From assembly GCA_000004985.1 (NCBI GenBank), contig GG738865.1: a DNA stretch of 64,000 bases. One strand, 5' to 3'. The stretch is from Naegleria gruberi. Taxonomy: Eukaryota. This document shows positions 3,813-64,000 of this stretch, piece by piece. The number at the start of each line of letters is the position of its first letter. Within the stretch, counting starts at the first letter, position 1. Under the pieces are notes generated by a model. It worked only from the letters and a program-made list of their open reading frames with translations. It ran no database searches and was not told the DNA's origin. A program made the position numbers and the translations under genes.

Positions 3813-5122
3813 ATGAATAGTCGGGGGATAAAATCGAGCGGACTAGTAGGGAATGGTTCTACTTCTGCTCTTGTATTATTAATTATCAATGTGATGATGC
3901 TGATAGTAGCGATGAATAATTTCCTAATAATGACGGAAGCAAAATTTGAATTGATTGGACATAGAGGAGCTCCAAATTTGAGACCTGAACATACGTATGA
4001 ATCCTATTTATTGGCTTTTCAACAAGATGCTGATTATATTGAATTTGATGTAATGCCATCTAAAGATGGAGTCCTTATGGTGACTCATAGTTTTGAATTA
4101 ACTGGTAGGTACCTGATTGAAAATCTTTGAGTGTGCTAACTGTTTCTTCTATAGAAATTAGTAATGTTGCCTCTGTGAGCAAATTTTCGGATAGAAAGAA
4201 AACTAAAGTTGTCGATAAGAAATCATATTCTGGATGGTTTATTGAGGATTTTACTGCTTCTGAATTACAGGAATTGAGATTGAGAGAAAGATATCCACAA
4301 GCTAGAACTACCAAGTTTGATGACATCTTTGTCATGCCAACTCTTGAAACAGCACTTGACTATATAATTGCTATTACTCCAAATAATTCTTCTAAAATCA
4401 AGCTCTATATCGAAACAAAGCATCCAACATATTTTGCATCTGCTTTGAATGTCGATGTTAACCAATTGCTTGTTAATGTTTTGGAGAAGTACCATTATCT
4501 TGAATATACCATGTTCCAATCATTTGAAATTTCAAGTATGACTAGTATTCGTACAATTTTGTCCAACAAGAATATTCAACCATTGGGATATGTGATGCTT
4601 TTAGTGGCTAATGGTTCTCAAATTGATAATGGAAGAAATTTTGATGAGTACCTGACTGAGGAAGGTATTGATACAGCAAAGAGTGCTGGTATCACTGGTT
4701 TCGGACCAGCTTGGAAGATGGTTACTAAACCATGGGTTGAATCAGTTCACAAGAGAAATTTAATCATTCACCCATATACTTACAGACCTGAGGAATACTT
4801 TTTGAAACAAACCCCATATACCACCTTCTCTGATTTTATTAAGAGTGCTTTGGAACTTGGTGTTGATGGAGTTTTCACTGAGGACATTGATCAAACCAGA
4901 GCCATTGTTCTTGCCTATGAATCCAATTCAGTTGTGACTGTCTTGCTAATCGTTGCCTTTGTATTCGTTGGAGTTTTATTCATTGTCATTGCTGCCTCTG
5001 TTTTATCAGCTTACCTTTGCAAGAGAAAGACCAATCCATCATCATCAGCCACCCAAAACAGAGAAGAACGTGCAGGTCTTGCCCAACAATCCAATTCCTA
5101 TTCATATAATCAAGATGAATAA
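3813..5122 (+). CDS. Membrane-anchored glycerophosphodiester phosphodiesterase (GDPD family)
   Basis: Exons 3813..4104 and 4155..5122 (50-nt intron, GTAGGT..TATAG, phase 1). GDPD signature ELIGHRGAPNLRPEHTYESY..ADYIEFDV..SKDGVLMVTHSFELT, then EISNV..FIEDFTASELQELRL. N-terminal hydrophobic anchor and C-terminal TM segment (VVTVLLIVAFVFVGVLFIVIAASVL). Confidence 0.85.
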
Positions 5123-13360: not shown

Positions 13361-13409
13361 TTCTGACCGTTACCATTATTAAAATACTCCAAAAAAATAA
13401 CAACAAGGT

Positions 13410-15455
13410 ATGCCTCCACCTCCTCCTTCAACATCTTCATCATCAACACCAAGAGGAAAGGCAATGCGATCTGCTTTTCTACCACCCGAAACCCCATTAT
13501 CAACCAAAATTAGAAAACCAATCAGGGCCACTCCTTCTTCTTCAACTTCCTCATCGACCAATGGCACTAAGCTACAAGAACAAGAACAGCTACAAGACCA
13601 ATGTATTAAAGTGTACATTAGAATTCGTCCGAACGATGATCATGACCAATTACAAATTGAATTTCTCAACAATTCTTCAATTCAAGTCACGTGTAAAAAT
13701 CAAGAAAAGGCAGATACACCAAAAGTATTCCTATTTGATCAGGTTTTGGATGAAAATGTTTCTCAGCAACAAGTTTTTGATTTGATTGGTGTTCCAGTTG
13801 TTGAAGAACTTCTTCAGGGGTTCAATGCTTCCATTTTAGGTTATGGACATACAGGATCTGGTAAAACATTTACAATGGGAACTAATCTTCATGAGATTGC
13901 AGATTCCTTTGAGAGTGGCAATTTGCCTGCTGCTTGTGGTTTATTGCCACGAATTGTTGAAAGGTTGCTAAACAGGAAGAAAGTGGACGAACAATTAAGC
14001 TGCTCCTTATTTGAAATTTATAATGGAGGAGTTTATGATTTATTTGGAGAGGCCAGCAAAAAGTGTAAGGTCAAGTATTCAAACGGTGTGGATGTTGTGA
14101 CCAATGCTAAAAAGAAGCTTATTCATTCACTGTCTGATCTTTCTTCCATTTCGTCTGGTTTAAAAAGGAGACATCAAAGTGCAACTGGACAAAATCTATC
14201 CTCATCAAGATCACACTGCATCTTTAGATTGTTTATCACAACTGCAGACAATACTGAAAGATGCCTAAACATGGTTGACTTGGCTGGATCTGAACGTCAA
14301 AAAACTGCCAACATTCACGCTGATAAAATGTTACTAGATGAAGCAAATTACATTAATACTTCATTGACAGTTTTGAAAAGATGCATTGAAGCAGTCTATA
14401 ATAATCAATCCAATACTGATAAGAAGACACTAGTTCCATACAGGGAAGATAATCTTGCCTTATTGTTGCATTCAACTTTGGAAGGAAATTCAAAAACTTT
14501 CTTTATTGGAAATATTGGAACTGCAAGTGAATCGATATCAACTTTGAATTATGCACAAACGGCAAGAAAGATTAAAAAGATGACTAGCAAGTTGAGTTCA
14601 ATGTTGAAGAAGAAATCAGGAGGATTGTTTGAAGAGGAAATTGAAAAGTTAAAGAAAGAGTTGGAAGAAACTAAGGGTAAATTGGATGAGGAAAGAGATA
14701 GCAAGACCAAACATATTGAAGAACTCTCACAGAAAATTGCATTATTAGAAACTAAACAACAGGAAGCTAATGAAATTCTCAAACAATCGAATACCATTAT
14801 AGAAGAGATGCAAATCAGAGACGATTCTCTGAAAGAAATTTGCTCAGAAAAAGAAGAAATTATTTCAAATCTCTTTGAAGAATTGTCAAAAGCCAGAAAA
14901 GAAAGCGAGCTCTTGGAGAAGGACAATTCAACATTGAAGAGTGAAAATTCAATTCTTTTGGAAGCAATTGAAAATCAATGTGAAATCATTAGACAACGAG
15001 ATAAGGAACATGATTCAGCTTTCCAAAATTTGAAAGAGCAACTAGACGAATATCAAAAACAGTCATCCTCAAAGACTCTTACAATTCAAACTCTGCGAGA
15101 TGAATTGAAAAAAAAGGACAAAATCATACAGAGAAAATCTTCAACTACTGCAGAACAACTTTATCAGACCATTGAAAATTTACTTAAAACAATTGAAGAT
15201 CAAAAGAAGACAATTCACATGTTTTTGAATGGAACGATGGAAGTTGTGGATATTGATAAGGAAGAAGCTCATGATGGTAATTCATGTGATAGTGATGATG
15301 ATGATGAGAAGGTGATGTCTGATTCTCCAGTTGTGAAATCAAACAAACGAAAGGTAATTTCTCCACTCCAAAATATTGTCTATGAATCAACAGATGAAAA
15401 TAATGAACCAGAATGTAAATATTCAAAATCTGATTTATTAGAATATTTAAAATAA
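13410..15455 (+). CDS. Kinesin-like protein, N-terminal motor plus coiled-coil stalk (divergent/orphan family)
   Basis: Motor motifs IKVYIRIRP, GYGHTGSGKTFTMG (P-loop), SSRSHCIF (switch I) and VDLAGSERQ (switch II), then about 250 aa of coiled coil. Stop TAA at 15453..15455. Confidence 0.9.
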   Translation: MPPPPPSTSSSSTPRGKAMRSAFLPPETPLSTKIRKPIRATPSSSTSSSTNGTKLQEQEQLQDQCIKVYIRIRPNDDHDQLQIEFLNNSSIQVTCKNQEKADTPKVFLFDQVLDENVSQQQVFDLIGVPVVEELLQGFNASILGYGHTGSGKTFTMGTNLHEIADSFESGNLPAACGLLPRIVERLLNRKKVDEQLSCSLFEIYNGGVYDLFGEASKKCKVKYSNGVDVVTNAKKKLIHSLSDLSSISSGLKRRHQSATGQNLSSSRSHCIFRLFITTADNTERCLNMVDLAGSERQKTANIHADKMLLDEANYINTSLTVLKRCIEAVYNNQSNTDKKTLVPYREDNLALLLHSTLEGNSKTFFIGNIGTASESISTLNYAQTARKIKKMTSKLSSMLKKKSGGLFEEEIEKLKKELEETKGKLDEERDSKTKHIEELSQKIALLETKQQEANEILKQSNTIIEEMQIRDDSLKEICSEKEEIISNLFEELSKARKESELLEKDNSTLKSENSILLEAIENQCEIIRQRDKEHDSAFQNLKEQLDEYQKQSSSKTLTIQTLRDELKKKDKIIQRKSSTTAEQLYQTIENLLKTIEDQKKTIHMFLNGTMEVVDIDKEEAHDGNSCDSDDDDEKVMSDSPVVKSNKRKVISPLQNIVYESTDENNEPECKYSKSDLLEYLK

Positions 15456-15458
15456 AAA

Positions 15459-16529
15459 ATGGGAAATAGTCAACCAAGTAGAAATTTCACAAAAAATCAA
15501 TTAACAACACCAGTTTCCATTCCGATATTGTTTCTTATCGGAGATAAATCAAGTGGAAAGACGCAAACTATTCTTTCATATAACCACAGTTTCGAATTAA
15601 ACAGACGAACCCGACATTTAATTATTGAACTTTCGCGATGCATTCTTGGTTATGAAGCTCATCAAATTTCCAAGATTGACGAAAAACATTACAAAAGCAT
15701 TGCAAAAAAGTTAAAAAAAACTTGGAATTCCAAAAAGGAAAATTCTTTAAAATTCAACGCTGAAAATTTTAAAAGAAATTTAAATTATTTTGAAATTTCA
15801 ATTGAAAAACTTTTGGAAATTCTTGAAAAAATTGTAAAGGACGAATTTAGTACTGAATTGACCAATTCAGAAATTCAAATTATTGAACAAGCTCAACTAT
15901 TAATTCATCCATTTGCTTATTTCCTGGAAAATTGGTCAATTGGAACACAAACTAATCAATTAGTTGAATTATGTGCAATTCCAAGATCGAAATTATCACT
16001 TGATTCAGAAACATTTTCATGGATGAAAGAAAGAGAAAATTCTGTCGTTTTGGTTTTCATTTCATTGATTGGATGGTTGGATGAAACAGAGTATAATTTT
16101 CACAATTTTGATGAGATTGGAAAGGTGCTTGGACACGTTTCGAATAAGAAATTCGAATTTGTTTTTACAAAACCAGATCTGTTGTGGAAAATTCTGGCAA
16201 AAGGAGTGAAATATAAACATCAGGTGAAAGATACAAGAGCAGAGTTATTGGATATGGAAACTAAATACGGATTCGATCGAATAGTTAGCTCAATAATTTC
16301 AAAATACGAAACTGAACTACTGGCAGAATGCAATGATGCACAGAAACCTTTCAACTATCACATAGCAAGAACCAATTCATTGGACGAAATCTCAAAAGTG
16401 ATTGAAAGTGCCACTTCTGAATTTTCTCAATTTATTTCACCATTTATTATTCGAAAGACTTTATTCCAACCAGCACATTCCAATCAATTATTCTATTCAG
16501 ATCTATTAATATTGTGCATCTACCCTTAA
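15459..16529 (+). CDS. Divergent G-protein alpha-subunit-like protein with degenerate GTPase motifs
   Basis: MGNSQPS fits the N-myristoylation pattern MGxxxS. P-loop LFLIGDKSSGKTQTI. Overall G-alpha layout, but DVGGQR is replaced by LCAIPRSK and NKKD by TKPD (VVLVFISL..FEFVFTKPDLLWKIL). The ATG lies 3 nt after the kinesin stop. Confidence 0.55.
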   Translation: MGNSQPSRNFTKNQLTTPVSIPILFLIGDKSSGKTQTILSYNHSFELNRRTRHLIIELSRCILGYEAHQISKIDEKHYKSIAKKLKKTWNSKKENSLKFNAENFKRNLNYFEISIEKLLEILEKIVKDEFSTELTNSEIQIIEQAQLLIHPFAYFLENWSIGTQTNQLVELCAIPRSKLSLDSETFSWMKERENSVVLVFISLIGWLDETEYNFHNFDEIGKVLGHVSNKKFEFVFTKPDLLWKILAKGVKYKHQVKDTRAELLDMETKYGFDRIVSSIISKYETELLAECNDAQKPFNYHIARTNSLDEISKVIESATSEFSQFISPFIIRKTLFQPAHSNQLFYSDLLILCIYP

Positions 16530-57108: not shown

Positions 57109-57150
57109 AGAGCTGTTGATTAGGTTGTAAGCTAAACCAAAATCAAAAAA

Positions 57151-60100
57151 ATGCTTTCACTGAACAGAACACTATCATCATCGATTTTAACTCAATGTAA
57201 TAGGGTTGGCTCTCACACATTGTCTCTATCACACAGAGTGTCGAAAGCTTGTGGAAAATCCAATTTTAAAGTTATTCTTGGGGTGAATAATTATAACACA
57301 TCGGAATTGATAAACTGTGTTATTAAAAACAACAATCAGAGAAATTACACTCTTACACAAAAATTAAATGGAAAGAAGAAGGACGCTACAAATGATGAGG
57401 AAGAGGATGTTGTAGAACTAAAATCAATCACTACCGAAAGTGTTGATTTAAAAAATCAGAAATTTACTCCAATGATGAATCAATATTTCAAAATTAAAGA
57501 AAAACATTCGGATTATTTATTATTATTTAGAATGGGAGATTTTTATGAAATTTTCTTTGAAGATGCTGTTAAAGCTTCACAAGTTTTACATATTACAGTA
57601 TGTTTAATATTAGATTATGAAAGTATTGAATTTATTTAAATTAGTTGACTAAAAGAGGAAAGCATTTGGGACAAGATATTCCAATGTGTGGAATTCCACA
57701 CCATGCATTAGATGCCTATTTACAAAAATTAATTAAGAATGGTGTTGTAGTTGCTATTTGTGATCAAGTAGAGGATCCAGCCGAAGCCAAGAAGAATAAG
57801 AAAATAGTCGAGAGACAAATTACTAGATTGTAAGTATTAATTTGAATTGGAATTCATTACTCAACTAATATAGAGTAACACCAGGAACATTGACAGAGGA
57901 TAGATTTTTGGAAGCAAGTGAACACAATTATTTAGCTGCTATTGGATTGCCAGAAAAATTCTCAACCAATGACGAAAATCATAAGGAGCAACAGGTTACT
58001 CTTTCATGGGTTGAATTATCGACTGGTGAATTTAATTATTTGAATTGTTCCTGTATGTAACAACCTTAATTATTATTTTAATATTTCAAGTTGGTAATTT
58101 ACAATCGGAGTTATTGAGATTGAGTCCAAGTGAAATTTTGATTCCTTCCAACTTTGAATACGTATTCAAGGTAAGACTGGAGGAATACCATGTCACTCTC
58201 AGAAAACCAGCTTCATATCAACACTATGCAAATTTCATTCAAAATCATTTCAAATTGGACAAGCTTTCAAGTTATAGTGGTGTAAGTTATTTAATAATAT
58301 TAATTTCTCATTATCAAATAGTTGGACATAACTACATGTGGAATGATTTTGGACTATGTTAAAGAAACTCAAAAAGGTCAAATGCCAACACTTAGTACAC
58401 CTGAAAAATTCAAAATGGAAAGAAATATGTCTATTGACTTGGCAACCAGAAAAAGTTTGGAACTCACACGGACCCTATCAGGATCTAGGAAGGGAAGCTT
58501 ACTTTCAATTATTGATAAATGTGTAACAGCACCAGGTGCTAGATTATTGTCGAATCGATTGGCCTCACCATTGGCTGTTCCTTCCGAGATTGAGGATAGA
58601 TTGGATTGTGTAGAATATCTCACTGAAGATAAAGTTCTCATTGATCAAATCAGAGACTATCTGAAGAATTGCTACGACATTGAAAGAGCCATTCAAAGAT
58701 TGAGCATGAGCAGAGGTTCACCAAAGGATCTTTTCACAGTTGCAGCAACGGTTTCACAATGTCAACAACTGAAGGAAATTATTTTGGAAAATGAGGCGAG
58801 GAGACATACCAAATTACCAACAGTGTTGGCCAAAGTAGTGGAAGAATTGAATTCGGATGTCCAACTCGAGGCGATGAACGAGATTTTATCCGCCATGAAA
58901 GAGTACGAGGACCTACCTACTTCTGTAAGTGAGGGAGGCTTCATTAGGGTTGGATATTCAACAGAGCTTGACGAATGGCTCAAATTGAGTCAACACAGTG
59001 AAACCCTTATTCAAGATCTCCAAAAGGAATATAAGGACAAGACTGGAATTAGTACATTGAAAATTAAGAATAACAATGTGATGGGTTACTTTGTAGAAAT
59101 TCCAAGCTCACAACGTGATAGAATTCTTCCATTTAAGGAGTTTTCACACAAGCAAACCATGACTAATGTAGTTCGTTTCAAGACTGACAAGCTAGAAGAA
59201 TTGCAAGAAAAACTTGGAAAGGCACAACAAGAAGCCATCGATATGGAGCTGAAAATCTTCTTCCAGCTTCAAAAGAAATTACTAATAATTGCCAAAACAC
59301 TACTCTCCTCTGCTCAATCTATTGCCTCAATTGACTTGTATTCATCTTTGGCTTTGCTGGCAAGAGAGAGAAGCTATACGAGACCTAATGTAACACCATT
59401 CATTGAGTCTGAAGAGTTGGAAAAATCGAAAAAGAAAGTTCCAATCCTCAATATTCAAAAAGGTAGACATCCAATTGTTGAATATGCACAACAAGTCGGA
59501 GGAGCCACCATTGACAAGTCAAAGTTGGGTAAGAATGTAGGATTGACCTTTGTATCCAATGATTGTACAATGTTTAATAATGAGAATAGACTCATGCTTT
59601 TAACAGGTGCAAACATGGCAGGAAAAAGTACATACCTCAGACAGAATGCCCTCATTATTATTTTAGCTCAGATGGGATGTTTTGTTCCAGCTCAAAAGGC
59701 AGAATTTATGGTGGTTGACAAGATTTTCAGTCGTGTTGGTGCCTCTGATAATCTTGCCAATGATCAATCGACATTTATGGTTGAAATGGTTGAGACTGCT
59801 AATATTCTCAATCAAGCAACCAATAAGAGTTTCGTAATTATGGATGAATTAGGAAGAGGAACATCAGTTCTAGAGGGTTTGAGTATTGCCACAGCTGTTA
59901 TTCAACATTTACACAATAAGATTCAATGCAGAGCTCTATTCGCCACTCATTTCCACGAGCTCATTGAGAAGGCAAAGGAATTGAAATTTATGAAACCCTA
60001 CAAGTTGGAAGTACGAGTTAACAAATCCAATAATATCACGTTCACATACAAGATAGTTCCAGATGAGATTATTGATGGACAAAGTGCTGCATCAACTCAT

Positions 60101-60202
60101 TCGTCCTATGCCATTCAAGTTGCTAAATTGGCTGGTGTACCATCTATTGTAACAGATGAGGCAGAAAAGATTTTAGCAAAATTAAAGGCAGAGAGAAAGT
60201 AA
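57151..60202 (+). CDS. MSH1: Bacterial-type MutS homologue, mitochondrial mismatch repair (MSH1-like)
   Basis: Five exons: 57151..57597, 57645..57829, 57874..58052, 58091..58281, 58322..60202. Introns are 47, 44, 38 and 40 nt. Presequence-like N-terminus. Domain I is [74 protein letters not shown]. ATPase motifs are [33 protein letters not shown] and FATHFHEL. Confidence 0.9.
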
Positions 60203-60476
60203 GGAATGCTCAAAAATCTCTTGGAAAACAGCCGGTAACGTGTCCTTAAAATTATGTGGCTACATTATTGACAGGCGCACTGAAACACACAGAAGAGTGT
60301 CTTTGTCACTTGTCAGGCCTTGTCACTATCATTAAAAAAAATTATCATCACAACTGTGTTATCCAGTTAAAACACATCACAACGATAATCATAAAAACAA
60401 CACCACAACAACAAAACAACTGTAAAACAATAATTAACTACTAGATAACAATAACTACGGACTAAATCACATAAAA

Positions 60477-62706
60477 ATGTCCTCCCTATTCAATCGTTTC
60501 AAAAAGAATAACAGCAATGCAGAGAATAAATTTGAACAACAACGTAACGCCAATCGTAAAACACTACAACCTCAGGATTTGACCTCGACCCAAAGTGAAA
60601 TCAGTGCTCATGACAAGTCGGGTTCACTCTCAATTCCATCAAGTAATACTGCCAGTAGTGGTTCTCTAGCCTATTATGAGGAAGGAGCATCAGTGAATGC
60701 CATGACTCAACTCTCAAACAAAAACAGTAAGAAGGGAGATAACAACAAGGAAAAGATGCCACCACCAGAGGAAATTGTTGCTCAATTTGAAAAGTTGTTG
60801 AAATATCAAGGTATTACACCAACTGAAAAACGATACAAATTGATGATTATGAAACCTTTGGAAGAAAAGTGGAAATTGGTTAAAATTATGCAAAATACAA
60901 AGAAGGAAGCTGATAAATTGCATACCATCAAGGACACTCCTGAATATATTGTACATCGTTTGAAAGATGAACCAACACTTGGTTCAGTTACTGAATTGAT
61001 CAGTCTCTTAAAGGGAGCTAAATCAGAGGATTGGATTCGTAAATTCTTGGATTTACAAGGTTTGGAGTGTTTATTTCAAATACTGGTAGAAAGTTGTGAT
61101 CAACAAATTAGAGAACAGTATGTTTTTGTTAACATTTTCAATAATTTATTGAATGTAACATTATTCAATTGATTATAATCCTTTTTTGGACATTTTTGTA
61201 ACTTTTTCAATATTTGTAATGTCCTCCAATGATTTTTAACACAGAGGTGGTAATATTCACGAAGAATTTTCTGATGATGAAGCACAACCTGAGGAAGAAG
61301 AAAATGAAGAGGAAGAAGATGGACTCGAAGATGAGGAAAAGAAGGAAGAAACTGGTTCCGAACAAGTGGAAACCAAGTCTTTGGATCCAAAGAGTAAACC
61401 ACCTCCACCTATGCTTCCACCAAGAATTGAAACTAAATCAAAGCGTGAAGATCCATACGATGCTCTTCAAGCTGAATGTGTCAGAGCACTTCGTGCATTG
61501 ATGAATACCACTCTTGGTCTTAATGCCTTTTTGCAAAGTAAGGACAAGTCAGTGTTAACTGTCACCAAGATTTTGGATTCCAGAAATATCAAAACCAAAA
61601 CTCAAGTTTTCTTCTTGTTGGCAACTATTTGTAGATTCGAACAAGGTTTTTGGATTGCTATCGATGCTATGAACAAGTACAAGTTGAATAGAAAGGAACG
61701 TGCTAGATTCCAAACCATTGTTCGTTTATTGAAGAAGAAGGTTGAAGTGAGTGATGAAACTATTTTACTCAAAACTTCAATTATTGTTTTCATTAACTCT
61801 TTAATTAATTCTCCACAAGATGCTTCATTGAAGAAACAATTGAGAAAGGAATTTGTTGATCTTAAAATGATTGAAATCAGTGAACAATTGAAAGCTTTGG
61901 ATCTTGACGATACTTTAACAATGCAACTTTCATTCTTCGAAGAGGAAGTTCAAGATATTGAAGATGCTGAAGAGGAGGAAGAAGAGCTAGATCTCGACGC
62001 ATTGGAAGATCCTATGGAAATTCTCAAACTTATTAGAGTTCAATTGGGTGGTTCTCAAGCTTTCGAATATTTCGTTAAAATCCTTCAATACTTTTTAATC
62101 ATTTCCGGTAAATCAAATGAAAAGGAAAAATCAAAGAATATGAATATTCTCTTGACAATGATCAAGAAGGCTGTTGCTTTCAAGGAAGATGGTGGAGTTG
62201 AAGAAGTCAGTGTTAAGGAATTGCAATTAGCTGATCGTGTTGAAACTCAACAACGTAAGATTACACAACTCGAAACTAGATTCTTGAAATTGGCAGAAAT
62301 GTTAAAGACTGGTAAAATTGATGATAAGGTTATTGAAAAATTCATTAGTTTGACATCTAAGGACACAAGAGAAAGCTTTAACAAATCAGTTGAAAGTATG
62401 GATCCTAGTGAGTTACAAGAAGAATTCCTCAAAGATGCCGAAGAATTACTTGTAAAGGTTAAGTCAAAAGGTGGATTTGATTTGGATACTTCAAATGCTC
62501 CAGAAGATTTAAAGAAACACTTGAAGAAACTCGAAACTGAGCTCAAATTTATGACTTATAAGGCCAAACAATTAGAGAAACAATTACAATCTGGAGGTGG
62601 AGGAAAAGGTGGAGGTGGTTCTGGTGGAGGATCAGGTGGAGGCGGCTCAGTAGGTTCAGGAGAAGCAAGCTCTGGTGATTCAGGATCTGAGGTGCCCTTC
62701 AGGTGA
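60477..62706 (+). CDS. Diaphanous-related formin, N-terminal GBD/FH3 region plus coiled coil and Gly/Ser linker
   Basis: Exons 60477..61117 and 61245..62706 (127-nt intron GTATGT..ACACAG, phase 2). GBD-like PPPEEIVAQFEKLLKYQGITPTEKRYKLMIMKPLEEKWKLV. Armadillo-like FH3 ECVRALRALMNTTLGLNAFL. This frame ends at TGA 62704 directly before FH1. Confidence 0.8.
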
Positions 62707-64000
62707 AGGTGGTTCAACAGGAGGTGATTCATCTGTTCCATCCATACCAACAATTCCAGTTGCAACTGAAGGCATTCCATTGCCACCTGGTATGGGAGTT
62801 CCTCCACCACCTGGTATGGGAATTCCACCACCACCTGGTATGGGCGGTATTCCACCACCACCAGGATCAGGTATTCCATTGCCACCTGGCGTTCCACCAC
62901 CACCTGGCATGGGAGGAATTCCAATGCCACCTGGAGTTCCTATGCCACCTGGTATGGGTATTCCTGGTATTCCAGGTATTCCACAAGGATACGTTCCACC
63001 AAAATTACCAACCTATAAGAGTACTGCTGTAATGAAGGGTGTCTTTTGGAGTAAGGTACCAGTTCAACAATTGAAGGACTCTATCTGGATTAAGAAGGAT
63101 ATTGTCACTGGATTGGAAGGTATTGAATTGGAAACAACAGAATTGGAAAAGCTCTTTGCTAAGAAGGAATCTATTGTATTGGAAACTAACACAAAGAAAC
63201 CAGAAAAGGTTACCCTCATTGATCCAAAGAAGGCCCAAAACTCTGCCATCGTTCTCGGTTCTATGAGATTGGACCACGATGATATTAAATTATCCATGTT
63301 GAGAATGGATGAAGGTGTTTTGGCTCCAGAAAATATCAAGGCCCTCAAGGACATGGTTCCTACAGCCGATGAAAGACAAGCTCTCAGTGATTATAATGGT
63401 GATTTCAACATGTTGGGAACAACTGAACAATTCTTGAGTAAGGTCATGGATATTCCAAGACTCGAAGAAAGATTAGAAAGTTGGTTGATCAAACTCAAAT
63501 TCCCTGCCAGTGTTTCCTCAATTGAACCAGATATTGAAACTATCATTTCTTGTTGCAAACAATTACAACAAGGTAAAAAATTCCACAAAGTTTTGCAAGT
63601 CATTTTGGCTATTGGTAACTTTATCAATGGTAACAAGAAGGCAGTTCACGGTTTCCAAATCAATGCCCTTCCAAAGTTGAAGGACACAAAGGCAACAGGT
63701 GCTAAGATTAATATGCTCGATTATATTGTTCAATTTTTGGAGAAGAATCATCCAGAAACTCTCAATTTTGGTGATGACCTTTCTGCTCTTAAGGGTGCTG
63801 AAAGAGTTTCAATTCAAGGTATCACTTCTGAATTGAATGAAATGAAGAATGGTGTCAATTTTGTTGGTAGAGAAATTGAAAAGTCAGATTTAGACACAGA
63901 ATTCGACAAGTTTAGAGAAGTCATGGTTGACTTTTTAGATTTTGCCTCTGAAAAGGTTGAAACATTCGAAAATCAAATTAAGGAAATGCAAACTCAAATT
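62702..64000 (+). CDS. Formin FH1 (poly-proline) and FH2 domains, 3' partial; same gene as 60477..62706 but in the +1 frame
   Basis: This ORF is absent from the ORF track because it runs off the window. Frame 62702 is open to 64000. FH1 repeats IPLPPGMGVPPPPGMGIPPPPGMGGIPPPP. FH2 includes VFWSKVP, LIDPKKAQNSAIVLGSMRL, LAIGNFINGNKKAVHGFQINALPKLKDTKA and LDYIVQFL. Confidence 0.9.

What the first reader, a model, noticed from the sequence alone, without database searches (positions are those of the whole stretch)
62590..62725. Formin reading frame breaks by +1 exactly at the linker/FH1 boundary, and FH1-FH2 is missing from the ORF track
The GBD/FH3/coiled-coil/Gly-Ser linker frame ends ...GSGEASSGDSGSEVPFR-TGA at 62704. 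The FH1-FH2 region (GEGGSTGGDSS..IPLPPGMGVPPPPGMG.., then a textbook FH2) is open from 62654 to the window end in the +1 frame.

The two frames overlap by only about 50 nt. I enumerated the GT..AG pairs that would join them in frame; the most direct are 28 nt (62675..62702) and 49 nt (62654..62702). These and the other candidates are G/C-rich with weak donors. That is unlike the 26 other introns here, which are AT-rich, 38-127 nt, with GTAAGT or GTATGT donors.

The candidates are therefore a 1-nt indel error, an atypical micro-intron, or programmed +1 frameshifting.
Basis: seen in the sequence. Interest (0 to 1): 0.5.

Follow-up and report, generated by a model that had tools for sequence, protein, structure and literature searches.

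The report
Small frameshifting insertion in Naegleria formin
The frame break is real in this reference sequence of Naegleria gruberi, but it is a tiny insertion (a sequencing/consensus error or a strain-specific lesion) in an otherwise ordinary, conserved formin gene, not a micro-intron or programmed frameshift.

Summary
The GBD/FH3/linker frame stops at TGA 62704-62706, and the FH1-FH2 frame (+1) is open from 62654 to the window end.

The window is Naegleria gruberi NEG-M. The gene is the annotated 'diaphanous-related formin' XP_002677705.1. That model bridges the break with a 67-nt 'intron' (62636..62702) that is GC-rich and has no recognisable splice signals.

An independent environmental contig, 99.1% identical over 5.8 kb, reads straight through as one ORF. 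At 62690-62694 the window has AGGTG where that contig has T, a net +4 nt. The simplest account is an in-frame 3-nt insertion plus one extra G at 62694.

N. fowleri, Willaertia and a further metagenome relative also have one continuous ORF from exon 2 to the stop.

No frame-restoring GT..AG pair resembles the window's 19 verified introns. No frameshift signal or downstream RNA structure was found. Both halves of the gene are equally conserved.

Verdict: a small indel in the reference. A draft-consensus error is most likely (about 0.55) and a real NEG-M allele is the main rival (about 0.33). Splicing or recoding is unlikely. Interest is low.

The parts
60477..61117 (+). Formin exon 1. It starts at ATG 60477 and encodes the N-terminus and the GTPase-binding domain.
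   Evidence: Pfam Drf_GBD matches residues 93-213 with E=5e-22. The exon is identical to the first exon of XP_002677705.1.
61118..61244 (+). Genuine intron 1: 127 nt, GTATGT...TTTTTAACACAG, GC 0.22.
   Evidence: The intron position is shared with N. fowleri and JGI contig L002, where the ORF breaks after ...CDQQIQEQ.
61245..62693 (+). Exon 2 read in frame A. It encodes the FH3/DID domain, a coiled coil and the Gly/Ser-rich linker.
   Evidence: Pfam Drf_FH3 E=1e-20. The codon log-odds favour frame A up to 62693.
62690..62694 (+). The lesion. The window has AGGTG where the 99.1%-identical contig L004 has T, a net +4 nt (+1 frame). The most parsimonious account is an in-frame AGG/GAG insertion plus a supernumerary G at 62694.
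   Evidence: Pairwise alignment of window 58179..64000 with L004. The Viterbi frame switch falls at 62693/62694.
62704..62706 (+). Premature TGA in frame A, a consequence of the shift.
62695..64000 (+). Continuation of the same coding sequence in frame B. It covers the end of the linker, FH1 (about 62774..62989, poly-Pro GMGxPPPPG repeats) and FH2 (63011..63997), and runs off the window.
   Evidence: Pfam FH2 E=1.2e-82. Identity to the N. fowleri, JGI and Willaertia orthologs is 69%, 75% and 68%. The stretch is colinear with L004's single ORF.
62636..62702 (+). The 67-nt 'intron' of the public gene model XP_002677705.1 (GTGGAG...CTTCAG, GC 0.57). It is an annotation patch over the frameshift and not a credible intron.
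   Evidence: The model is reproduced exactly by exons 60477..61117, 61245..62635 and 62703... Its donor score is -4.8 and its acceptor score -5.5. Real introns have leave-one-out minima of 5.1 (donor) and -3.9 (acceptor). L004 translates this segment.
62650..62683 (+). The best-scoring alternative micro-intron candidate (34 nt, GTAGGT...ATTCAG). Rejected.
   Evidence: Its donor score of 8.4 is within the real range. However, its GC is 0.50, it has no branch motif, and it is shorter than any real intron (minimum 38 nt). It would give ...GGGGS|DLRCPSGEGG. In L004 the donor is GTCGGT, through a change that is synonymous in frame A (GTA to GTC), and the segment is coding.

Best explanation
The locus is one ordinary diaphanous-related formin gene of Naegleria gruberi NEG-M, with the layout GBD-FH3-coiled coil-Gly/Ser linker-FH1-FH2(-DAD). 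Its native state is two exons: exon 2 runs uninterrupted from 61245 to the stop, which lies beyond the window, giving a protein of about 1320 aa.

In the reference sequence the linker-coding DNA carries a small insertion at 62690-62694, where AGGTG stands in place of the T seen in a sister strain. This shifts the frame by +1 and creates TGA 62704. The simplest decomposition is a harmless in-frame 3-nt indel polymorphism (an extra Glu) plus one supernumerary G at 62694.

I judge the extra base most likely to be a consensus error of the draft assembly, possibly arising at a heterozygous 3-nt indel. The cell would then make the continuous protein ...SGDSGSEVPSGEGGSTGG....

Shown: the frame break, its exact position, continuity of the ORF in all relatives, and the lack of intron or recoding signals. 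Inferred: that the extra base is an error and not a true allele.
For: - Source identity: exact protein look-ups place the window in N. gruberi NEG-M and identify the gene as XP_002677705.1.
- Sister strain: the independent ENA metagenome contig L004 is 99.08% identical over 5.8 kb and has one 1053-codon ORF across the site. The only difference that changes the frame is at 62690-62694.
- More distant relatives: N. fowleri, JGI contig L002 and Willaertia magna have single ORFs of 1149, 1116 and 1273 codons from exon 2 to the stop.
- Frameshift signature: the frame A and frame B halves abut on adjacent residues of the ortholog. They are equally conserved, at 68/71/58% and 69/75/68% identity.
- No decay: differences from L004 are 18 synonymous and 6 non-synonymous. 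The FH2 region carries a single synonymous change.
- Codon usage: the statistics switch frame exactly at 62693/62694. This is the only same-strand frame switch in the window's coding segments (about 45 kb as labelled by the HMM) that a canonical intron does not explain.
- Codon choice: the shifted reading uses the rare codon CCC (2.6 per 1000). The repaired reading uses the common codons CCT, TCA, GGT and GAA.
Against: - No read-level or transcript data for NEG-M could be reached, so error and true allele are not separated (searches were negative).
- The difference from the sister strain is 4 nt plus a substitution, not a homopolymer miscount. That is somewhat unusual for a pure base-calling error.
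- The inserted AGGTG repeats the AGGTG at 62701-62705. This would also fit a real templated mutation.
- No other unexplained frame break was found in the segments the HMM labelled as coding, so the assembly is not generally error-ridden.
Confidence: 0.55

Rival explanations
1. The insertion is a real lesion in NEG-M. It would be a frameshift allele on one haplotype of a heterozygous and possibly polyploid lab strain, or a recent fixed mutation in the axenic line. The mutant copy would give a truncated 700-aa GBD-FH3 protein, while other haplotype copies or the other 13 formins supply function.
For: - The difference from L004 is complex (AGGTG in place of T) and lies 11 nt upstream of an identical AGGTG, which resembles a templated mutation.
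- Indel polymorphisms between the two lineages are frequent: five others occur in 5.8 kb.
- Naegleria is described as mainly a heterozygous diploid with ploidy variation (PMC9928731). N. gruberi has 14 formins (PMC7594500), so a lost copy could be tolerated.
- No other unexplained frame break was seen in the window segments the HMM labelled as coding.
Against: - The downstream 1.35 kb remains open and shows no relaxed constraint; FH2 has one synonymous difference from L004. The lesion would therefore have to be very recent.
- No independent NEG-M sequence confirms it.
- From my own general estimate, not a tool result, draft consensus errors are expected to be at least as common per gene as true loss-of-function alleles.
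Confidence: 0.33
2. A short GC-rich spliceosomal intron restores the frame in the mRNA. The candidates are the annotated 67-nt 62636..62702, the 34-nt 62650..62683, or the reader's 28-nt 62675..62702 and 49-nt 62654..62702. This could be cryptic splicing that rescues the lesion.
For: - GT..AG pairs of length 3n+1 exist, and the public model uses one.
- The donor at 62650 (GTAGGT) scores 8.4, within the range of real donors.
- The 34-nt candidate is only 4 nt shorter than the shortest real intron.
Against: - All 67 frame-restoring pairs have GC of 0.47-0.59. The 19 real introns have GC 0.15-0.36 (mean 0.24, SD 0.05).
- None contains the YTRAY branch motif, which 16 of 19 real introns carry.
- The annotated intron's donor and acceptor scores (-4.8 and -5.5) fall below every real intron.
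- The segment has positive coding log-odds in frame A.
- The segment is translated in L004, where the 62650 donor is GTCGGT through a change that is synonymous in frame A.
- Orthologs have no intron here.
Confidence: 0.06
3. Programmed +1 ribosomal frameshifting joins the two frames. It could act at CCC-U (tRNA-Pro slip), at UUC-AGG-U (a less-used Arg codon, AGG, in the A site) or at AGG-UGA-A (antizyme-like shift at a stop).
For: - ORF1 ends at a UGA with the +1 frame open, as in antizyme.
- AGG is a less-used Arg codon here (7.3 per 1000, against AGA at 27.9) and CCC is rare.
Against: - The site does not exist in a 99.1%-identical strain or in any ortholog, all of which are in frame. A recoding signal would therefore have had to arise within about 1% divergence.
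- There is no match to the known heptamers CUU-AGG-C, GCG-AGU-U, UCC-UGA-U or AAA-UAA.
- The downstream 97 nt fold no better than shuffles (z = -0.91).
Confidence: 0.02

Closest known systems
Diaphanous-related formins (mDia, DAAM, INF2 and FHOD type; Dictyostelium ForH-like): the gene itself
   Same: The domain order is the same: Drf_GBD, Drf_FH3, coiled coil, poly-Pro FH1, FH2. L004 and P0043 also show a C-terminal DAD-like stretch, GVLDKTLDSLMDGSGF. The best non-heterolobosean hits are DAAM1, INF2 and FHOD3.
   Different: Nothing structural differs once the frame is repaired. Only the reference sequence is interrupted.
N. fowleri FDP41_010637, Willaertia magna ABK040_005000 and JGI/ENA metagenome Naegleria contigs (orthologs)
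   Same: Identity is 58-75% along both halves. The MutS-then-formin gene order is the same in N. fowleri and in L002/L004. The intron-1 position is the same in N. fowleri and L002.
   Different: All of them have one uninterrupted ORF from exon 2 to the stop. Only the NEG-M reference is shifted.
Frameshift-bridging pseudo-introns in automated eukaryotic gene models
   Same: The public model XP_002677705.1 inserts a 67-nt 'intron' of length 3n+1 exactly over the frame break. It has none of the genome's intron features.
   Different: That the pipeline generated it to fix the frame is my inference. I could not see the model's supporting evidence.
Antizyme, Ty1 and Ty3 programmed +1 frameshifting
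   Same: The +1 frame is open across a 0-frame UGA.
   Different: There is no conserved shift site, no stimulatory structure and no conservation in relatives.

Membership tests
Diaphanous-related formin | FH2 domain | tested here: met
   Pfam PF02181, E=1.2e-82, frame B residues 120-448, window 63011..63997.
Diaphanous-related formin | N-terminal GBD and FH3/DID | tested here: met
   Pfam PF06371 E=5e-22 and PF06367 E=1e-20 in frame A.
Diaphanous-related formin | Proline-rich FH1 immediately upstream of FH2 | tested here: met
   Read directly from the sequence: GIPLPPGMGVPPPPGMGIPPPPGMGGIPPPPG..., about 62774..62989.
Diaphanous-related formin | C-terminal DAD | not tested
   It lies beyond the window. 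A DAD-like GVLDKTLDSLMDGSGF followed by a basic stretch is visible in L004 and P0043, but I did not score it with a model.
Diaphanous-related formin | All domains on one polypeptide | tested here: inconclusive
   This is met in L004 and three orthologs. In the NEG-M reference the ORF is broken at 62694-62706, and whether that break is real is unresolved.
N. gruberi spliceosomal intron (as seen in this window) | GT..AG ends with a GTRNGT-type donor | tested here: not met
   The annotated 67-nt candidate has GTGGAG (score -4.8), the 28-nt candidate GTGATT (-0.8) and the 49-nt candidate GTTCAG (-12.5). Only 62650 GTAGGT (8.4) is in the range of real donors, whose minimum is 5.1.
N. gruberi spliceosomal intron (as seen in this window) | AT-rich relative to the flanking exons | tested here: not met
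   Candidates have GC 0.47-0.59. The 19 real introns have GC 0.15-0.36.
N. gruberi spliceosomal intron (as seen in this window) | Branch motif YTRAY (usually TTAAC or CTAAC) near the 3' end | tested here: not met
   The motif is present in 16 of 19 real introns and in none of the candidates.
N. gruberi spliceosomal intron (as seen in this window) | Not translated in close relatives, or intron position conserved | tested here: not met
   L004 and all orthologs translate straight through the segment.
Programmed +1 ribosomal frameshift | Shift site conserved among orthologs | tested here: not met
   All relatives are in frame, including one that is 99.1% identical.
Programmed +1 ribosomal frameshift | Known shift heptamer or a downstream stimulatory structure | tested here: not met
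   GUG CCC UUC AGG UGA A contains no known heptamer. The fold of 62704-62800 has z = -0.91.
Programmed +1 ribosomal frameshift | Trans-frame protein produced from an unedited mRNA | not testable with these tools
   This needs proteomics or ribosome profiling of NEG-M.

The most novel reading that the evidence does not exclude
The insertion is real and homozygous in NEG-M, and the cell still makes a functional formin. It could do so by a newly arisen +1 recoding or cryptic-splice rescue. Alternatively it could express the GBD-FH3 regulatory half and an internally initiated FH1-FH2-DAD half as two separate polypeptides that regulate each other in trans.
Probability: 0.04. Interest if true: 0.55.

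Novelty: not a real feature. Interest (0 to 1): 0.1.

Why it matters
The main value is as a curation note. The public model XP_002677705.1 (D2VDU4) drops 22 linker residues through a fake 67-nt intron. It is also fused to a downstream gene, giving 2077 aa against about 1320 aa for the true formin.

If NEG-M reads showed the lesion to be real, it would be a natural truncating allele of one of 14 formins in the standard lab strain. That would be of modest interest to people working on the Naegleria cytoskeleton. It says nothing new about splicing or recoding.

Tried and rejected
- Homolog searches: two searches returned orthologs but never the N. gruberi protein itself. The first was swamped by low-complexity words, with only 34 of 8000 candidates significant.
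- Source identity: it came only from exact look-ups of single-exon ORFs.
- Looking for independent NEG-M sequence: exact look-ups of the truncated products (700, 446 and 431 aa) and of the neighbouring MutS ORF found nothing. L004's 1053-aa product is also not indexed.
- JGI metagenome scans: one by peptide patterns and one by an exact DNA pattern spanning the junction with a 0-8 nt gap. Both found nothing, so no further N. gruberi haplotypes were obtained.
- Literature: searches for the accession numbers and for the ENA project returned nothing. The JCB formin paper holds no supplement text.
- ORF-adjacency screen: a naive screen for other frame breaks was too noisy. I replaced it with a codon-usage Viterbi segmentation and inspected each switch by eye. 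The segmentation leaves about 19 kb labelled non-coding, so the survey for other breaks is incomplete.
- Rejected readings: a homopolymer (CCC) miscount as the specific cause, because the alignment to L004 points to 62690-62694; a long-standing pseudogene, because the downstream part is intact and conserved; and a micro-intron or programmed frameshift, for the reasons given under the rival explanations.
Full report
**Observation.** Reading the window directly confirms the finding.
- The formin starts at ATG 60477.
- Exon 1 ends at 61117, and a canonical 127-nt AT-rich intron (GTATGT...ACAG) follows.
- Exon 2 starts at 61245.
- In this frame the sequence ends ...GSGEASSGDSGSEVPFR-TGA (62704-62706).
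- The +1 frame is open from 62654 to the last base of the window and encodes ...PSGEGGSTGGDSS..., a poly-proline FH1 and an FH2.
- Pfam assigns Drf_GBD and Drf_FH3 to the first frame and FH2 (E=1.2e-82) to the second.
- FH1-FH2 is absent from ORF listings only because ORFs that run off the window end are not listed.

**Where the window comes from.**
- Homology searches pointed to Heterolobosea. The best hits were N. fowleri at 73%, a JGI metagenome protein at 71% and Willaertia magna at 62%. All are continuous GBD-FH3-FH1-FH2 proteins.
- Exact look-ups of single-exon ORFs identified the source as Naegleria gruberi NEG-M (XP_002677695.1 and XP_002677701.1, on an 820-kb scaffold).
- Those look-ups also identified the gene as XP_002677705.1 / EFC44961.1, 'diaphanous-related formin', 2077 aa.
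- That model is reproduced exactly by exons 60477..61117, 61245..62635 and 62703...
- So the public annotation crosses the break with a 67-nt 'intron', GTGGAG...CTTCAG, at 62636..62702.

**Relatives.**
- In N. fowleri (L001), a JGI metagenome contig (L002) and Willaertia (L003), the region from exon 2 to the stop is one ORF of 1149, 1116 and 1273 codons.
- The exon-1 ORF is also found on an independent ENA metagenome contig (L004; ERZ929261, run ERR1078381). It is 99.08% identical to window 58179..64000.
- L004 is a different genotype. It differs by 25 substitutions, which are mostly at third codon positions: 18 are synonymous, 6 are non-synonymous, and one lies in the MutS-formin intergenic spacer.
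- L004 carries one 1053-codon ORF from MLPPRIETK... through linker, FH1 and FH2 to ...KAPSKRRLKNGGDDEL-stop.
- At the junction the window reads TCTG-AGGTG-CCCTTCAGG and L004 reads TCTG-T-CCCTTCAGG.
- The window therefore carries net +4 nt at 62690-62694.
- Removing only G62694 gives TCT GAG GTC CCT TCA GGT. This differs from L004 by a clean in-frame AGG/GAG insertion and reads ...SGSEVPSGEGG....
- The other coding indel between the two lineages is a 9-nt in-frame repeat unit in FH1. The remaining three indels are intergenic.

**Position and uniqueness of the break.**
- A codon-usage Viterbi segmentation of the window puts the frame switch at 62693/62694.
- Every other same-strand switch it found coincides with a canonical short intron, at 146, 7712, 18306 and others.
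- The same holds for the ORF junctions I checked by eye (4105, 25073, 1381, 37545).
- About 19 kb was labelled non-coding, so the survey is not exhaustive.
- The two halves align to adjacent residues of the ortholog, 486/487 of P0002.
- They are equally conserved: 68/71/58% for frame A and 69/75/68% for frame B.
- FH2 differs from L004 by one synonymous change, so there is no sign of decay.

**Micro-intron hypothesis.**
- I curated 19 real introns. Their lengths are 38-127 nt (median 50) and their GC is 0.15-0.36 (mean 0.24).
- Their donors are GTAAGT, GTATGT, GTAGGT or GTGGGT, and 16 of 19 carry a YTRAY branch motif.
- All 67 GT..AG pairs that would restore the frame have GC 0.47-0.59 and none has a branch motif.
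- The annotated 67-nt intron scores -4.8 (donor) and -5.5 (acceptor). Real introns have leave-one-out minima of 5.1 and -3.9.
- That candidate is only 34 nt, has GC 0.50 and lacks a branch motif.
- It would also put DLRCP into a Gly/Ser/acidic linker.
- In L004 its donor is GTCGGT, through a change that is synonymous in frame A, and the segment is plainly coding.
- The interior of all candidates has positive coding log-odds in frame A.

**Frameshifting hypothesis.**
- The 0-frame context is GUG CCC UUC AGG UGA A.
- A tRNA-Pro slip on CCC-U would give the same protein as the repaired gene. Shifts at AGG or at UGA are also conceivable.
- However, the site is missing from a 99.1%-identical strain and from all orthologs.
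- It matches no known +1 heptamer.
- The 97 nt downstream fold no better than shuffled sequence (z = -0.91).
- CCC is a rare codon here (2.6 per 1000), whereas the repaired reading uses common codons.

**Error or real allele.**
- I could not reach any NEG-M reads or transcripts. The exact look-ups and both metagenome scans were negative.
- For an error: draft consensus errors are common. The extra base sits beside what looks like a real 3-nt indel, and heterozygous indels are a classic source of consensus mistakes. The downstream ORF is pristine.
- For a real allele: the change is not a homopolymer miscount. The inserted AGGTG repeats the AGGTG at 62701-62705, which would fit a templated mutation. 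Naegleria is heterozygous with variable ploidy (PMC9928731) and N. gruberi has 14 formins (PMC7594500).
- My estimates are about 0.55 for an error, 0.33 for a real allele, 0.06 for splicing and 0.02 for recoding.

**Verdict.** This is an ordinary conserved formin with a small lesion in the reference sequence, and the public annotation papers over that lesion with a pseudo-intron. Interest is low. The practical output is a corrected gene structure and a specific read-level check.

Noticed in passing
Beyond window end; P0043 versus L004:6300-6408: The public model XP_002677705.1 (2077 aa) also appears to be a fusion. L004 and N. fowleri end the formin at ...KAPSKRRLK(N/Q)GGDD(E)L-stop. The model instead leaves at ...GLAKAP|KQPNEQQ... 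and continues for about 750 more residues of an unrelated downstream gene.
   Followed up: partly
window 57136-60202 (+) and 60477 onward: A MutS-family gene lies directly upstream of the formin. It has four short AT-rich introns at 57598-57644, 57830-57873, 58053-58090 and 58282-58321. The same MutS-then-formin order is seen in N. fowleri (L001) and in contigs L002 and L004, but not in Willaertia (L003).
   Followed up: partly
window 13401-15455 and 15459-16526 (+): A kinesin-motor gene (Pfam Kinesin, E=1.6e-67) ends at TAA 15453-15455. The next same-strand, same-frame ORF begins at ATG 15459 (MGNSQPS..., 356 aa, no Pfam hit), only 3 nt later. This is an unusually tight gene spacing, or possibly a mis-split single gene.
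   Followed up: partly
window 41782-40400 (-): Two same-frame ORFs are separated by a single TAA at 41164-41162. The upstream one is 206 aa, low-complexity and has no Pfam hit. The downstream one is 254 aa and has a Myb DNA-binding domain (E=5.6e-11). No intron signals are visible around the stop. This could be a gene boundary, an in-frame stop, or another small lesion.
   Followed up: partly
window 60283, 60327, 60464 and 62956, compared with L004: Natural indel polymorphism separates NEG-M from the environmental strain. There are 10-nt, 5-nt and 1-nt indels in the MutS-formin intergenic spacer. There is also a 9-nt in-frame indel, one GIP unit, in FH1.
   Followed up: yes
window 4105-4154, 8392-8340 (-), 25073-25030 (-): Real introns here also use GTAGGT and GTGGGT donors, not only GTAAGT and GTATGT. 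Most introns carry a TTAAC or CTAAC-like branch motif 9-25 nt upstream of the 3' AG.
   Followed up: yes
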